Shown here: piece by piece, positions 1-61,590 of the stretch
Position numbering within the stretch: position 1 is the first letter of the stretch
Layout of the letters: every line of letters starts with the position of its first letter
Assembly (NCBI GenBank): GCA_964016885.1
Contig: OZ024743.1
Location: 33,728,001 to 33,792,000, forward strand
Reading direction: 5' to 3'
Length of the DNA: 64,000 nt
From: Eledone cirrhosa
Taxonomy: Eukaryota
Notes under the pieces: model-generated
Told to the model about the DNA's origin: nothing
What the model saw: the letters and a program-made list of their open reading frames with translations, nothing else
Databases searched by the model: none
Translations under genes and position numbers: made by a program

Positions 1-661
1 CTAGAAACAATTTTTTGACATGCAGTTTGTTTGTTTCAGCCAAACCATCAATAGGTTGAAATAATTAAAACAGCTTCTGATACCACTGATATTACAATAT
101 ATTAGAAGCTTCTCTGCTTCTCTGTTGATAATAAAAGAACTCTTTTGTCTCATGTAAAAGACACCATATCATGCTATATGATGATTAATTGCAAGTTAAA
201 TGTTAGCATGTGAGGAAGATTGAACATAAAGGATTTTCTTTGCAAGTTATTTTAAAAGTTTGATTGTCATATTTATTATATTTTCCCATGAACATTAAGG
301 AATAAATAAAGTGAAATGTTTACTGCTAGGACTCAGACTCGGCTTACTTAGTACAACTTCATGGTGGTTTACAAAACACTCATTCTTTGAGGTAAAATGT
401 TAGAAGTTTCTTGCTGTATTTCAGGTTCTATTCATTGCTAAGTCTGAGAAATTTGAGCTATGCACTCTTTTTACATTGTTATAATTACTAATCAGATTTA
501 AAGCATTTGTCTGTGCATTCATTGTTGTTGCTGTACCTAATCCTTTTGATACTCTATTTCTAATGAAAGACACTGCTTGCAATTTTCAAATAATTTTGAC
601 AATAACTAGGTATATAAAGGGATTTAGTAATATAACTAACTTTCATTATCTAGTTGATGAA

Positions 662-18984: not shown

Positions 18985-19172
18985 GGGCGGTGGATTGGCA
19001 GTATTGGTAGAGGGTCGGACGCCATGCTTTGACGCATAGTTACAGCCCTTGCCATTCTGAGTTCAAATCCCGTAGAGGTTAACTTTGCCTTTCATCCTTA
19101 CGGAGTCGATAAAATAAAGTACCAGTAATGCACTGGGTAGTTGCTGGCCTTGTGCCAAAGGTAGGAACAATT
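18985..19172 (+). mobile_element. tRNA-derived SINE family 1
   Basis: Full-length consensus match starting GGGCGGTGGATTGGCAG. Confidence 0.9.
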
Positions 19173-19190
19173 ATATATATACATATAGGT

Positions 19191-19535
19191 GGAGGTACAT
19201 GGCTTAGTGGTTAGAGCATTGGCCTTGCAATCGAAAGGTTGTGAGTTCAATTCTCAGACCGGGTGATGTGTTGTTTCCTTGAGCAAGACACTTTATTTCA
19301 CATTGCTCCAGTTTACTCAGCTGTAGAAATGAGATGATAGGGACTAGGGTCCATATCATTCCACTGCAAAGTGGTCGTGGAGGTGCCACGGCAAAAAAGC
19401 ACCCAGCACTCACTGTAAATGAGGTTGGTGTTAGGAAGGGCATCCAGCTGTAGAAATCAAGCCAGAATCAGTTCCCGTCCCACCCTTGTAAGCAGGGAAA
19501 AAGCGGACGTAAAATGAAATGATGAAAATGAAATG
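19191..19535 (+). mobile_element. tRNA-derived SINE family 2 (CORE-like segment, RTE-like (GAT)n tail)
   Basis: A box TGGCTTAGTGG, B box GAGTTCAATTC, CCTTGAGCAAGACACTT, GTTAGGAAGGGCATCCAGCTGTAGAAA and tail GGACGTAAAATGAAATGATGA. Nearly identical to 60240-60584. Confidence 0.88.
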
Positions 19536-19546
19536 ATATATATATA

Positions 19547-26929: not shown

Positions 26930-27389
26930 TTGTGTGTGTGTGTGTATACACACACACAAAACACACATATATAGTCAGCACAGTATTGTATTTCCATATC
27001 CTTTCTCTGATACATCAGCTCATTGGAAGTAGATTTATCTAAATGGTAACCTTAATCATCAAAGAGAATTGTCAATAATCAATATCACAATTAGCTCTTT
27101 ATCTTATGCATATCTCAAAATAATTATATGCAGGTTTTAAATAGTTAATTTCCAAGTAAGATAGAATATATCTAGAAAAATATACAAACAGGTGTACTTA
27201 TAATGCCTACAATGGTGTGTATGTGTTTCTATGAGGAAAATAAAGATAGAATGTGAAAGAAAGACTGATTAATTGACTATCATCGACCAAAATATTCACT
27301 TTGTAGATTACAAAACAGTTCACTGCTAAAAACTATTGTAAACAATGAAATGGACCTTCGTTGGTGTCAACAGTATTCCAGTTGTTTAA

Positions 27390-27597
27390 CACTTTAGCAT
27401 TTACATTACTCTATTTATACTATTGTATTTTCGTGGTAAAGGCTTTATCTATCATAATATCGAATCTATCAGATTTTGGTATTATTTATATTGAGAACAA
27501 TGCCTTAACATCAGTATGAGTGGCTGGTTACAGCCAGTTTGAACAGAAAAAGGTGAGAGAATTCTGGCTGGATACAGCCGGTTTAAATACTAAAGGG
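27390..27597 (+). mobile_element. piggyBac-type MITE family A
   Basis: TTAA|CACTTTAGCATTTA...TAAATACTAAAGGG|TTAA. Confidence 0.85.
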
Positions 27598-28636
27598 TTA
27601 ATCCATGGAATAGTCTGTTGATGAAATGAATCAGTTTGGAACAGTGAGTGACTAGTCTGGTCCATTGAATTACAGATACAGTCAATCCAATGGGCTTCGA
27701 AACAGGTTCTGTCTGGGTCATCCCCAGACTAGGGTAAAAGGCACTTGACAAAATGCCATGATGTGGGATTGAATCCATGACCTTATGGTTGTAAAATGAA
27801 CTTCTCAAACATTCAACCATGCTGCATTGACATTGTAAATAAGACAATCATTCTAAATAAATAGAAAGTGGAAATGTGGCAGATACTGAGTGTCTGATAT
27901 GCAGCAGACAATATAAGCATCGTGTGATTTATGTTTGATTTATGTTTGATGAATATGTCAAGTGATTCCCCCATCCAGGTGAGGCAGAACTAAGTACAAT
28001 TTGTTTACCAATATCAAATTATCTTAACAAATTTGATATCAAACTGTCTGAAATCACTCCTGTTTCTATGAAAACTGTTTTAATTTGTTCTTATTTCTGT
28101 AAAAATCTTTCATTATAATTTTCTTTAAAAACATATAAGCTATGCTTCAAACACCAGCTTAAAAATGAAAAAGTTATTTGACTAAATTGCCCAGAATTCT
28201 TAATTATTTTCAAATGTAATTGAAAATCATAATCAATGCTTTTCATTAGAAGTATAGTAACAACTGGGTTAATAAAGTCAGTTTGCTAAGTGAGGGTATG
28301 AGATTCATTAAAAGGAAGGTATAAAGTAAAACAGACTGAAGCACAGTTTTATGCTGGAAATACTTTACCTATAATGAAGATCACAGGAGTAGAGTGGAAA
28401 CTGTGATTTTGAGTGACCTTAATGTCTTTCATTACCCTATTTCTAACAAATACACTAACTGTGATTTTCAAATAATTTAAAAAATAATCAGGAAGCAACT
28501 TTATTATTACTAAGCTGGTGTTTGAAACAAAACTTAGCAAAATTATCTTAAATAAAATCATGATGGAGGGTTTCAATTTACAAAGGACATTGCATCATAA
28601 AACCAAATGTGGTTTCAGGCAGTTTGGTCTCAAAAG

Positions 28637-28837
28637 AGCATTTGCATTACTCTATATTTACTATATTATTTTCATGGTAAACACTTTATCTAATATAATT
28701 ATATCACATAATATCGAATCTACGAGATTTTGATATACATTTTGAGAACAATACCGTAACATAACTATGAGTGACTGGTTATGGCTGGTTTGAACAGAAA
28801 AGGTGAGAGAATTCTGGCTAGTTATGGCTGGTTTAAA
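28637..28837 (+). mobile_element. piggyBac-type MITE family A with damaged ends, abutting a family B copy
   Basis: Internal consensus match that starts directly after the family B end TTTGGTCTCAAAAG. Confidence 0.7.
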
Positions 28838-29340
28838 TTAAAACTAAAACAGACTAATTGAGATTTTTAGATAATTTTATCTTTACTCATTATTTAATTG
28901 AAACACTCCCAGTGAAACCTTTATATTTGAAGCAACAATCTAACTAGAAATAATATTACATTTTTTTTATTAAAATCTCATGTATCTACAACTAGAAATG
29001 TCAAATATAATCAAACATTTAATTTTGATGCACATACCTACTGATTTACAATATAAATATTTAATTCAATCAAACTTTTGTATATTTCAATTAGTGTAAT
29101 TGTTTTACAGTTTAAACTTGCTTAGCTATTTGTTTTTACTTAAACATAACTTCTTTCAAATTCAGGCTTTCCTCAATCTGTAGCCTAAAAATAATTTCTA
29201 CTTCATGTCTTACTTTTTTCTTTTGTGTGTGTGTGTGTGTGTGTGTGCGCGTGCATAGTTATACAAGCATGGTGACACTAAAAGTAAATGTGGTGAGAAC
29301 TTGAAAGCCAAATTGATTGGAGATTGAAAAGACAATTTAA

Positions 29341-29548
29341 TCCTTTAGCATTTAAACCGGCCATATCCAGCCAGAAATTGCTCACCTCTTTCTGTTCAAT
29401 CTGACTGTAACCGGCCGCCCATACTGATGTTAAGGTATTGTTCTCAAAATAAATCACATCAAAATCTCATAGATTTGATATTATTATTATGTGAGGTAAA
29501 GCCTTGAAAATACAATAGTAAATATACAGTAATGTAAATGCTAAAGGG
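29341..29548 (-). mobile_element. piggyBac-type MITE family A
   Basis: TTAA|TCCTTTAGCATTTA...TAAATGCTAAAGGG|TTAA, with the internal sequence in reverse orientation. Confidence 0.85.
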
Positions 29549-29809
29549 TTAAAGTTGAGAAGACTCTTCTGACTGGCTGAGCATATTGCAAACTTTCTAA
29601 TGTTGGTGTCATGATAAAATGCACCCAGTACACTCAAACGAATGTTAGGGTTGGTGCCACAATAAATGCACTCAATTTACTCTGTGGTGCTGCTGTATCC
29701 AGCTATAGAAACCATGTTAAATATGATATGTATGTCAAGATGAAATTGCTCTGCCCCTCATGGAAAGTAGATATAAAATGAAGATATATATATATATATA
29801 TATATATAT

Positions 29810-34858: not shown

Positions 34859-35059
34859 ATGATGTCCAGCAGAAGCAAGGGGGACAACCGTCTATGCATT
34901 TCAGGCTTAACTGGCCATCGTCAGGACGGTCCCTCCCACTGCTTGTGACTGCTGGACTATTACACAGACGAGAAAACTATATATTCTCGCCTATCTTTTA
35001 TGGCCAGTTAAGCCTGAAATGCATAGACGGTTGTCCCCCTTGCTTCTGCTGGACATCAT
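34859..35059. mobile_element. Head-to-head inverted repeat carrying a hammerhead; putative Penelope-like pLTR relic (family H1)
   Basis: Perfect ~59-bp inverted arms at 34859-34918 and 35000-35059. The left arm extends into a full hammerhead on the minus strand. Confidence 0.65.
34886..34931 (-). ncRNA. Minimal type I hammerhead ribozyme (Penelope-like element type)
   Basis: Minus strand reads GACCGUC-CUGACGA-UGGC CAGUUAA GCCU-GAAA-UGCA-UA/GACGGUU. This gives a 7-bp stem I, an intact core, stem II GGC/GCC, a 1-bp stem III closing the palindromic loop UGCA, and an AUA cleavage triplet. Confidence 0.8.
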
Positions 35060-44205: not shown

Positions 44206-44432
44206 TATGTATAATCATTTACAACAATGATATATGCAGGCACTTAAGTTTCTTTGGGTTGTTACTCCAACTCATTCAGTCTGCCATATTGTAATGGAGT
44301 ACCTATGGCAGACTGAATGAGCTGGGGTAACAACCCAACAAAACTTAAGTACTTGCATATTGGTGTATGTTGTAACTGATTATACATACCTTATCACACA
44401 GGCTGTGTAGTGGATACTTACACCAAGTTTAT

Positions 44433-58635: not shown

Positions 58636-58900
58636 TAATAATAATAATGAGCAGGAACGAAGTATCAATATAGCATCACTATGTTTATGCACATCTGACG
58701 CATGTTTTGTGATCAATCAGCTCAAGGTACGATCTACATTCATTAAGGAATCCACAAGTTTGATGAGTTATCAATTCCATAGTCAGGCCCAGTCGATACT
58801 GATCATACCTTGAGTTGATTGATCACAAAATACATGTCACACCTGAATAAACATAATGATGCTATATTGATACTTTGTTCCTGCTCATTATTATTTATTA
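58636..58900. repeat. ~98-bp imperfect inverted repeat with 66-bp spacer
   Basis: 58636-58734 pairs with 58801-58900. The outer ends are (AAT)n and (ATT)n. Confidence 0.8.
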
Positions 58901-58950
58901 TTATTATGTGTGTGTTTTTGTGTATATATATATATATATATATTATATAT

Positions 58951-59995
58951 AATATTGTTATACTTGGGGAGGGTCATATTTGTGTAATAATATTGCCAGA
59001 ATTAATAACAGAACACACTCACTGTTTGGTTGGTTTTCACTTCTGTGTCTTTTATATCGGTTAATTCAATTTATTCGGTCCTCAATGTTACCATTGACTG
59101 ATCAACGGTCAAAAATACAGATATAATATAGACACAAACACGTATATATAGTCTAACAAAGTTATTTCGTTGCAAATCTGCAACCTCGTCAGTGGTGTTT
59201 GGGTGTTGTTGTTATTTTGCTGGCCTCTCTGATTTGCCTATCTGCTGGGTCATTTCTATGTTTAGATATTATTCTAATTTCTATGTTGTCTATATTACCG
59301 TTGTGTTGTTGTCTGGCATGTTCGTATACGAACATGCCAGACAACAACAAATCAGAGAGGCCAGCGAAATAGAACTTAGAAGGCCAAGGCTAAACAGAAA
59401 AAATGAATGGAATAACAACAACACCCAAACAAACAATACTGACCTAAGAGAAGTGTAAATAAATAAATAAATACATACACAAGCACAATAACAACAAACA
59501 AATATAAACACACACTAGTAAACTAAGATAGAATACAATAACCAATACACAGTCACCCAAACACGAACACCCATCAAAAACTATACACACACGCAAACGC
59601 ATGCGCAGAGAAGACAAAAAAAAAAATAAATAAATAAATAAATAAACAGACGAAATAAAGATGGCATAGGCATACAATATAACGGGAGGAAATATAATAG
59701 CACCACACGATGTTGCAGATGTGCAACGAAAGAACTTTGTTAGACTATATATATATATATGTGTTTGTGTCTATATTATATCTGTATTTTTGACCGTTGG
59801 TCAGTCAATAGTAACATTGAGGACCGAATAAATTAAATTAACCGATATAAAAGACACAGAAGCGAAAACCAACCAAACAGTGAGTGTGTTCTGTTATTAA
59901 TTCTGGCAATATTATTACACAAATATGACCCTCCCCAAGTATAACAATATTTGTTTCGACACACGATTTCATATCAAAAACCTCGCAAAACTAAT
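58951..59995. mobile_element. Palindromic 5'-truncated Penelope-like retroelement (GIY-YIG C-terminus, 3' UTR and pLTR-like arms)
   Basis: ~245-bp inverted arms at 58951-59196 and 59701-59951, with a perfect 46-bp palindrome at 59304-59349. The two arms together encode YEHARQQHNGNIDNIEIRIISKHRNDPADRQIREASEIELRRPRLNRKNEW, matching the H...H / RxIxEAxxI...PxLN C-terminus of PLE GIY-YIG endonucleases. Confidence 0.75.
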
Positions 59996-60149
59996 TATAT
60001 ATAATATATATATACATATTATATATAATATATAATATATATAAAGGATAACAAAAAATCGTTATAGACTGCAAATAAATCCCCTTTTTTGTACTGTTGA
60101 CCATGTTATTCTCCACCTTTTCAATTATATAATATATCTATATATATAT

Positions 60150-60182
<33 letters not shown>

Positions 60183-60239
60183 ATGTATATATATATATTA
60201 TATATAATGTATATATATAATGTATATATATATATATAT

Positions 60240-60584
60240 GGAGGCACATGGCTTAGTGGTTAGAGCATTGGCCTTGCAATCGAAAGGTTGTGAGTTCAAT
60301 TCTCAGACCGGGTGATGTGTTGTTTCCTTGAGCAAGACACTTTATTTCACATTGCTCCAGTTTACTCAGCTGTAGAAATGAGATGATATGGACTTGAGTC
60401 CCTATCATTCCACTGCAAAGTGGTCGTGGAGGTGCCACGGCAAAAAAGCACCCAGCACTCACTGTAAATGAGGTTGGTGTTAGGAAGGGCATCCAGCTGT
60501 AGAAATCAAGCCAGAATCAGTTCCCGTCCCACCCTTGCAAGCAGGGAAAAGTGGACGTAAAATGAAATGATGATGATGATGATG
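60240..60584 (+). mobile_element. tRNA-derived SINE family 2, full length
   Basis: Nearly identical to 19191-19535, with a (GAT)n tail. Confidence 0.9.
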
Positions 60585-61385
60585 AATATATAATGTATAT
60601 ATATATATAATATATAATGTATATATATATATTATATATAATATATAATGTATATATATATATTATATATAATATATAATGTATATATATATATATTATA
60701 ATGTATATATATAATATATAATATGTGTGTATATATATATAATATATAATGTGTATATATATATATATAATATATAATGTATATATATATATAATATATA
60801 ATGTATATATATATATATTATATATAATGTATATATATATATTATATATAATGTATATATATATATATATTATATATAATGTATATATATATATAATATA
60901 TAATGTATATATATATATATTATATATAATGTATATATATATATTATATATAATGTATATATATATATATATTATATATAATGTATATATATATATTATA
61001 TATAATGTATATATATATATTATATATAATGTATATATATATATATTATATATAATGTATATATATATATTATATATAATGTATATATATATATATATAT
61101 ATTATATATAATGTATATATATATATATATATTATATATAATGTATATATATATATTATATATAATGTGTATATATATATATTATATATAATGTATATAT
61201 ATATATTATATATAATGTATATATATATATTATATATAATGTATATATATTATATATAATGTATATATATTATATATATTATATATAATGTATATATATA
61301 TATTATATATAATGTATATATATATATATATTATATATAATATATATATTATGTGTAATATATATATATATGTATGTATATATAT
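60585..61385. repeat. AT-rich minisatellite, unit about TATATAATG(TA)nT
   Basis: Tandem units of about 22-28 bp with variable (TA)n length. Confidence 0.92.
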
Positions 61386-61392
61386 TTAATAC

Positions 61393-61590
61393 AGAAAAAG
61401 GCTTCTACAGGACTAAAACTGTTTCATTCGGGAGAAATCCTCAGGAAGCCGACTATAATATGGTGGTAATTGGTGATTTCTCCCGAATGAAACAGTTCTA
61501 GTCCTGTAGAATCCTTTTCTATATTAAATATTTATACTTTTCTTTGTATTCAGCACCTTACTTACTGTGGTTACCCCCAATTGAACCTGG
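61393..61590. mobile_element. Head-to-head inverted copy of hammerhead-bearing repeat family H3
   Basis: 61393-61439 is the near reverse complement of 61475-61520. The right arm continues with sequence shared with 47474-47550. Confidence 0.65.
61400..61450 (-). ncRNA. Type I hammerhead ribozyme
   Basis: Minus strand reads GGCUUC-CUGAGGA-UUUC UCCC GAAU-GAA-ACAG UUUUAGUC CUGU-A/GAAGCC. Perfect 6-bp stem I, 4-bp stem III and a GUA cleavage triplet. Confidence 0.78.

What the first reader, a model, noticed from the sequence alone, without database searches (positions are those of the whole stretch)
58951..59995. Spacerless palindromic Penelope-like insertion whose arms carry complementary deletions
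Seen: the symmetry centre is at 59326/59327, in a perfect 46-bp palindrome. Reading outward, the - arm encodes YEHARQQHNGNIDNIEIRIISKHRNDPADRQIREAS, then lacks the next ~40 bp and ~270 bp of 3' UTR. The + arm lacks HNGN...DR but keeps QIREASEIELRRPRLNRKNEWNNNNTQTNNTDLREV*. The deletion junctions show short microhomologies (CAA, AATA). Together the arms rebuild a PLE GIY-YIG C-terminus. The RQIxEA...NxKxEW ending recalls Naiad-type PLEs, from memory and unverified. Inference: the insertion formed as a perfect fold-back of about 1.4 kb, then was stabilised by deletions on alternate arms or made by template jumps.
Basis: partly seen in the sequence, partly recalled or inferred. Interest (0 to 1): 0.72.

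Follow-up and report, generated by a model that had tools for sequence, protein, structure and literature searches.

The report
Eroded fold-back Penelope retrotransposon insertion
This is a real back-to-back pair of cut-short ends of a very common Penelope-type jumping gene, a layout already known for this class; it likely began as one long hairpin-like insertion that later lost pieces, because intact long hairpins are common among young copies of the family and almost absent among old ones.

Summary
Real, and of a known kind. The 46-bp palindrome, the three breaks (69, 43, about 265 nt) and the peptide are confirmed; natural copies carry the sequence unbroken as the C-terminus of a 1217-codon RT plus GIY-YIG frame. 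It is not Naiad: the nuclease is C-terminal. Head-to-head joins occur in 97 of 169 sampled loci, the 43-nt tail sits on exactly one arm in 54 of 64 pairs, and palindromes at the inverted junction are published. 'Complementary' deletions are not special (chance 0.32). New detail: the family folds back again and again on native 4-6-nt palindromes at this spot (26 other events found), and 23 of these also have one arm broken 9-63 nt from the centre. Intact near-symmetric pairs are 7 of 40 young loci against 1 of 64 older ones, so long palindromes are likely born often and lost with age. Later deletion (0.55) and jumps at birth (0.35) could not be separated; reads did not span the locus. The scan reported such fold-backs before on other DNA of this genome. 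In passing: the RT has a telomerase-sized insert not described for C-terminal-nuclease clades.

The parts
58942..58953 (.). left copy of a candidate 12-nt target-site duplication, in a TA-rich tract
   Evidence: identical to 59994-60005 and directly at both ends; weak, the 12-mer occurs 29 times in the window
58951..59197 (-). left arm, outer block: 3' end (pseudo-LTR) of the element without the tail; starts at a decayed hammerhead-like core
   Evidence: 97% to family majority, element positions E434-E680; E0 = first base of the Tyr codon at the fold point
59196..59216 (-). left arm, 21-nt block between two breaks (43 nt with AATA microhomology; 262 nt with CA)
59213..59328 (-). left arm, inner block: codes the last His pair and the catalytic R/E stretch of the GIY-YIG domain
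   Evidence: 35 of 38 residues identical to the full-length ORF in L071
59304..59349 (.). perfect 46-bp palindrome; its right half is a 23-nt stub of the right arm
   Evidence: same centre in three other loci
59325..59328 (.). fold point: a TATA that is native to the intact element
   Evidence: alignment of natural copies
59348..59950 (+). right arm after the 69-nt break (CA microhomology): end of the ORF (stop 59456-59458) and 3' UTR / pseudo-LTR
   Evidence: 10 substitutions in 607 nt against the family majority
59951..59993 (+). 43-nt 'tail', on this arm only; it is the start of the element's ORF region
   Evidence: matches the pLTR-ORF junction of full-length copies; tail on exactly one arm in 54 of 64 complete pairs
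59994..60005 (.). right copy of the candidate target-site duplication

Best explanation
This is one old insertion of a high-copy Penelope-like retrotransposon in which two 5'-truncated 3' ends sit head to head on a native TATA, and it likely formed as a nearly full 1.4-kb fold-back that was later broken by three microhomology deletions. Shown: family identity, the native TATA at the centre, tail on one arm only, TA target, the three junctions, and that intact near-symmetric pairs are frequent in young copies and rare in old ones. Inferred: the nuclease nicked a TA tract, reverse transcription ran from the tail to the TATA, the new DNA end primed on itself (or on a second cDNA) through that short palindrome, and synthesis ran back out to the fixed pseudo-LTR end; the long spacer-less palindrome was unstable, and this copy would have persisted because a deletion 23 nt from the centre and two more on the other arm cut the pairing down to blocks of 23, about 22, about 20 and about 250 bp. 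It codes nothing functional.
For: Natural copies hold the arm sequences contiguously. Young copies (99-100% alike) show long fold-backs with unbroken arms and a tail on one arm, e.g. L345 with no spacer on a native hexamer palindrome. Intact near-symmetric double arms: 11 of 46 young arms against 1 of 70 older arms; 7 of 40 against 1 of 64 loci, Fisher p 0.005; among inverted loci only, 7 of 29 against 1 of 32, p 0.02. At this same spot 23 of 26 other old fold-backs have one arm broken 9-63 nt from the centre (my tally). Two non-palindromic copies (L045, L047) lost nearly the same 69-73 nt with other breakpoints, so that piece can go by simple deletion. Three breaks in 1035 nt against a family rate of 0.13 per kb. 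Palindromes at the inverted junction, self-priming and microhomology deletions are described in PMC3846280; long spacer-less palindromes are unstable (PMC7999016 passages).
Against: Short stubs are no more frequent in old than in young arms (3 of 70 against 1 of 46), so loss of whole intact palindromes, without conversion, explains the age trend as well. Young copies already carry 18-84-nt re-copied patches and one 43-nt cap with a jump at their junctions (L330, L336, L342, L360, L373), so jumps at birth exist. The deletion leaves the symmetric tip intact, where stabilising deletions are usually said to remove it (recalled, not from a call). No derived substitution is shared by the two arms (0 shared, 7 and 1 private in 298 nt), so self-copying is not shown here. 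Deletion excess in near-symmetric pairs is weak (5 in 16.4 kb against 26 in 226 kb, p 0.055, with some hits picked by my queries and some likely artefacts). Young and old sets are different subfamilies, picked with different queries. The locus was chosen for its breaks, so its rate is inflated.
Confidence: 0.55

Rival explanations
1. Born broken: two cDNAs were primed from the two nicked strands (one with the tail, one without); the left one stopped at the TATA, snapped back for 23 nt and was joined through CA to the right one, which had stopped 90 nt further down. The 69-nt gap would then be a junction, not a deletion; the left-arm gaps would be template jumps or later deletions.
For: 9 other old loci show fold-back, 10-54-nt stub, then a jump to a second 3' arm, and 14 show a stub joined to flank; L220 and L159 do the same at other centres. 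Most head-to-head joins are asymmetric (median offset 572 nt; 13 of 98 within 12 nt). Young copies show short re-copied patches. A Penelope protein cleaves and extends both strands and has two RT start sites that bound the tail (PMC11167929 passages); cDNA snap-back before the 5' join is seen for R2 proteins (PMC11371274 passages).
Against: Among young near-symmetric junctions intact double arms outnumber stubs about 8 to 1. Internal gaps are rare in young arms, and this locus needs two more on the left arm.
Confidence: 0.35
2. Assembly artefact (a fold-back chimera of reads or a collapsed repeat).
For: No public contig or read set bridged the junctions.
Against: The arms differ by 8 substitutions in 298 nt and by indels, end at the two fixed family ends and have the same 12-mer outside; 97 of 169 loci show the same kind of join.
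Confidence: 0.04
3. Two independent insertions, one landing in the internal TATA of the other in opposite orientation.
For: The family targets TA tracts; the arms share no derived base.
Against: The join is 5' end to 5' end, while an incoming copy would put its 3' end at the cut; tail on one arm and one candidate duplication frame the whole unit.
Confidence: 0.04
4. A non-autonomous palindromic mini-element that moves as a unit with these deletions.
For: The same centre recurs (3 exact matches of the 24-nt centre in the genome).
Against: The left-arm double junction occurs only here (1 of 40 scored of 43 candidates); other fold-backs have other stubs and centres; the four loci with one shared stub are segmental duplicates with shared flanks.
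Confidence: 0.02

Closest known systems
Endonuclease-bearing Penelope-like elements with inverted pseudo-LTR arrangement (Adineta vaga Penelope families, PMC3846280; overview in PMC8557442 Fig. 2 text)
   Same: 5'-truncated copy inverted next to the 5' end, palindrome at the inverted junction, tail on one end only, microhomology deletions, Asn-rich stretch in the ORF, partial tandems
   Different: Here thousands of copies allow counts: recurrent fold points on native 4-6-nt palindromes and a fall in intact symmetric pairs with age; the A. vaga families belong to Penelope/Poseidon and lack the Cys linker
Nematis / Neptune clades (PMC8557442)
   Same: C-terminal GIY-YIG with CCHH, CX4CxxC linker before it, TA-tract targeting; the short linker and the short E-to-N spacing look like the Nematis rows of Fig. 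S2 (by eye)
   Different: RT motif A to B distance is 127-134 aa in all 16 aligned proteins against about 61-63 in the Penelope and Nematis rows of Fig. S1 (counted by hand); clade not placed on a tree
Naiad clade (PMC8557442)
   Same: CCHH, Cys linker, TA targets, insertion between RT motifs A and B, inverted and tandem structures
   Different: Naiad has the nuclease N-terminal and a DKA motif; this family has RT first, DKS, and an insert about 45 aa longer than Naiad-Amil
cDNA snap-back junctions of R2-protein insertions (PMC11371274) and L1 twin priming (cited there; not read)
   Same: short antisense copy of the cDNA end before the 5' join; inversion at the 5' end
   Different: different enzyme class; here both arms can carry a complete element 3' end

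Membership tests
EN+ Penelope-like element | RT related to telomerase RT | tested here: met
   AlphaFold model of the RT-EN part of L071, pLDDT 91.5; the three best Foldseek hits are telomerase RTs. Pfam gave no hit on the L071 protein; four of five homologues tested hit RVT_1, two above the cut-off
EN+ Penelope-like element | GIY-YIG endonuclease in the same ORF | tested here: met
   VVY..YIG core with conserved R, H, E, N in the alignment of 16 proteins; Pfam GIY-YIG only weakly on one homologue (E 0.005, below cut-off)
EN+ Penelope-like element | pseudo-LTRs from partial tandems, inverted truncated copy, tail on one end | tested here: met
   tandem 4.1-kb units; 97 of 169 loci with a head-to-head join; tail on one arm in 54 of 64 pairs
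EN+ Penelope-like element | hammerhead ribozyme motif in the pseudo-LTR | tested here: inconclusive
   a CUGA..GA / 6-bp stem / GAAA core is visible by eye in natural copies and is mutated on both window arms; Rfam found no hammerhead in the window or in L071
Naiad | nuclease N-terminal to RT | tested here: not met
   full-length ORFs run RT then nuclease then stop
Naiad | DKG motif changed to DKA | tested here: not met
   DKS in all 16 aligned proteins
Naiad | insertion between RT motifs A and B | tested here: met
   127-134 aa against about 84 in Naiad-Amil (hand count from Fig. S1); homology of the insert not tested
Hydra | no CCHH motif, DKT motif, CxCX5C linker, under 3 kb | tested here: not met
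   CCHH residues present, DKS, CX4CxxC linker, 4.1-kb unit
Nematis / Neptune | C-terminal nuclease with CCHH and CX2-5CxxC linker | tested here: met
   short spacing as in the Nematis rows of Fig. S2 (by eye)
Nematis / Neptune | no insertion in the RT fingers | tested here: not met
   about 70 aa longer than the Nematis and Neptune rows of Fig. S1
Nematis / Neptune | placement inside the clade on an RT tree | not tested
   no named reference proteins were available to the tree tools

The most novel reading that the evidence does not exclude
This family is a natural time series of palindrome decay in an animal germ line: its reverse transcription folds back on native 4-6-nt palindromes so often that about a sixth of young short insertions are kilobase near-perfect palindromes, which are then removed or eroded by stepwise breaks about 20 bp into the stem; and the enzyme belongs to an unnamed, widespread C-terminal-nuclease Penelope lineage with a telomerase-sized fingers insert.
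Probability: 0.35. Interest if true: 0.55.

Novelty: new member of a known kind. Interest (0 to 1): 0.27.

Why it matters
The locus itself is a dead fragment. Its use is as one point in a large series: Penelope integration is still unresolved, and thousands of dated copies with fixed ends, recurrent fold points and an age-dependent loss of perfect palindromes would let the self-priming and two-strand models be tested, and would give a germ-line decay rate for long palindromes. The RT insert may widen the described clades.

Tried and rejected
Public runs: contigs of four runs and two contig sets plus two RAD read sets gave only family-level pieces; no record bridged a junction, so no verdict on the assembly. 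Rfam: only sub-threshold microRNA hairpin matches to the palindrome, no hammerhead. Pfam: nothing on the full ORF; PDB sequence search only weak RT matches. No stable RNA structure at the fold point (z -0.16). One genome search returned nothing; one meant to sample young copies caught mostly other copies because common words are skipped (23 of its loci went into the older set). Flank TA content did not separate stub-ended copies from plain truncated ones (3 of 13 against 12 of 51). Late hairpin opening as the source of stubs is disfavoured, since stubs and main arms carry separate mutations. The stop hot zone at E-13..0 is uneven: 8 of 32, 3 of 22, 0 of 25 and 0 of 41 arms in four sets, 5 of 45 in an upstream-blind set against 0.9 expected, two of them seen before, 3 of 46 in young arms; the zone was chosen after seeing data. 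Rejected: Naiad, Hydra, a mobile palindromic mini-element, special meaning of 'complementary' gaps.

Full report
Observation. The window holds a perfect 46-bp palindrome at 59304-59349 and outer arms at 58951-59197 and 59701-59951 that are 93.7% alike. Aligning the arms outward from the centre shows a 69-nt gap on the + arm after 23 nt, and gaps of 43 and 271 nt on the - arm. Against natural copies the junction overlaps are CA, AATA and CA, and the long gap is 262 nt. I use E-numbers, with E0 the first base of the Tyr codon at the centre. The unit reads E680-434, E173-153, E113 to -2 on the - strand, then E-2 to 22 and E90-722 on the + strand. Random placement of gaps of these sizes avoids overlap in 0.32 of trials, so 'complementary' is not a signal.

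Identity. The own genome (3.0 Gb) gave 2931 first-look candidates for the region, 40 scored; the copies carry the two arm pieces as one contiguous sequence. A protein search gave 12468 candidates, 125 scored, many with 1217-codon open frames. [quoted passage not shown] A fold of the RT-EN part (pLDDT 91.5) has telomerase RTs as the three best matches. Of 94 homologues among 5146 candidates the best is an Octopus vulgaris protein at 69%, so the host is probably an octopod (inference). By the criteria in PMC8557442 (abstract, main-text parts 1-5 of 9, supplement parts 1, 53, 54, 55 and searched passages) this is not Naiad or Hydra; the nuclease end looks like the Nematis rows, by eye; no tree was built. 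The window's copy belongs to an older subfamily: arms 1.6% and 2.7% from the majority, other copies 1.0-3.9%; its 3' UTR is about 78% alike to the young subfamily.

The layout is ordinary for the class. PMC3846280 (main text read, parts 1-4 of 5) describes inverted pseudo-LTRs, 18- and 38-bp palindromes at the inverted junction read as self-priming, a tail on one end, microhomology deletions and Asn-rich inserts. In this genome 97 of 169 distinct loci (14 duplicates dropped) have a head-to-head join; 13 of 98 joins are within 12 nt of symmetric and the median offset is 572 nt. The tail is on exactly one arm in 54 of 64 complete pairs, on both in 8, on neither in 2; the window follows the rule. 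The same 12-mer flanks both ends, a weak sign of one insertion event because it occurs 29 times in the window. These samples are the top-scored hits of my queries, not a census.

Fold points. The centre is a TATA native to the element. The exact 24-nt centre occurs at 3 places in the genome and a fourth has one mismatch. A query from another fold-back (544 candidates, 40 scored) brought many more, centred on the neighbouring native AGTACT. Counting four segmental duplicates once and leaving out one 8-nt stub, I tally 26 other fold-backs centred within E-11..1: 3 have a partner arm over 100 nt (L080, L251, L256), 14 have a 9-63-nt stub that joins flank, and 9 have a stub that jumps to a downstream part of the element as in the window. 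Two more stub-and-jump cases lie at other short native palindromes (L220, L159). Whether copies stop here more often than elsewhere is uneven: 8 of 32, 3 of 22, 0 of 25 and 0 of 41 arms in four sets, 5 of 45 in an upstream-blind set against 0.9 expected, 3 of 46 young arms; the zone was drawn after seeing data, and the RNA there has no notable fold.

Age. A protein query for the young C-terminus gave 150 identical hits (24327 candidates); I examined 88 stretches (30 returned by the tool, 60 fetched mainly for short or paired open frames, 2 duplicates dropped), which covers nearly all hits whose junction can lie within 700 nt. Among arms with a junction in E-700..0, intact near-symmetric double arms are 11 of 46 young against 1 of 70 older (159 stretches), stubs 1 of 46 against 3 of 70; by locus 7 of 40 against 1 of 64, p 0.005, and 7 of 29 against 1 of 32 among inverted loci, p 0.02. 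So long near-perfect palindromes are made often and do not last. This fits the known instability of long spacer-less palindromes (PMC7999016, passages). It does not show that old stubs come from intact pairs: stub frequency does not rise significantly, young junctions already carry 18-84-nt re-copied patches and one cap with a jump, and the two sets are different subfamilies.

Mechanism. Inferred: the nuclease nicks a TA tract; reverse transcription starts at one of two fixed points, which gives tail or no tail (a Penelope protein cuts and extends both strands and has two start sites bounding the tail, PMC11167929 passages); the cDNA end pairs through the short native palindrome and synthesis turns round (snap-back before the 5' join is seen with R2 proteins, PMC11371274 passages). 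For this locus I favour a nearly full fold-back eroded later (0.55): it has three breaks where the family rate predicts 0.13 per kb, internal gaps are rare in young arms, and nearly the same 69-73 nt were lost independently in two non-palindromic copies. A 23-nt snap-back joined at birth to a second cDNA is close behind (0.35). Against my reading: no shared derived base between the arms, only a weak excess of deletions in near-symmetric pairs (p 0.055), and an intact tip. Runs laid on the locus gave no bridging record.

Novelty. The kind is known and the scan noted similar fold-backs elsewhere in this genome. Searches for a description of recurrent fold points or age-dependent loss of such palindromes in Penelope elements (listings only, apart from the papers named) found none beyond PMC3846280; an octopus repeat paper (PMC13282606) and a retrozyme preprint (10.64898/2026.07.22.740005) were seen as passages only and the preprint's supplements are closed. 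Most subscription papers and repeat databases were not searchable, so absence is weak. The RT motif A-B distance of 127-134 aa in 16 of 16 aligned proteins, against about 61-63 for canonical rows, 84 for one Naiad and 118 for human telomerase (hand counts from Fig. S1), was not found described for a C-terminal-nuclease clade in one search. Verdict: a real, decayed, ordinary Penelope fold-back; modest interest comes from the family-level series.

Noticed in passing
L071:3279-5495 and homologues P0001-P0088: RT motif A to B distance 127-134 aa, about 70 aa longer than canonical Penelope, Neptune and Nematis rows and close to telomerase, in a lineage with a C-terminal nuclease; PMC8557442 describes such an insert only for Naiad and Chlamys. 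Over 80 full-length relatives at 29-69% identity, mostly unnamed.
   Followed up: partly
window 58636-58900: A second, older fold-back (76% self-complementary) directly left of the finding; it belongs to another repeat family (1206 candidates, 40 scored, many also self-inverted); no RT or nuclease motif found in 11 loci.
   Followed up: partly
L071:1842-3280: About 190 residues of Asn-rich low-complexity sequence in the N-terminal part of the intact ORF, like the N-rich inserts reported for A. vaga Penelope but in another position; the ORF start lies in the tail region.
   Followed up: no
L330, L336, L342, L360, L373: Young copies carry 18-84-nt re-copied patches of the element at their 5' junctions, often about 25 nt, a sign of repeated priming during the 5' join.
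   Followed up: partly
window 59701-59735 and 59165-59197: The hammerhead-like core of the 3' UTR is damaged on both arms (2-nt loss on the + arm, three substitutions on the - arm), and the long left-arm gap ends just before it.
   Followed up: partly
L261, L266, L269, L270 (G000 C28, 43-47 Mb); L025, L026: One fold-back insertion present four times inside segmental duplications 91-99% alike; such sets could date deletions within one insertion.
   Followed up: partly
window 27385-29553, 34859-35059, 44206-44388, 61376-61537: Further inverted repeats or fold-backs of 165-220 nt in the window, not examined.
   Followed up: no
window 60223-60592 and 19172-19546: Two 95% identical copies of a tRNA-like SINE (label recalled, not tested) and a long TATATAATG-type satellite at 60580-61390.
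   Followed up: no
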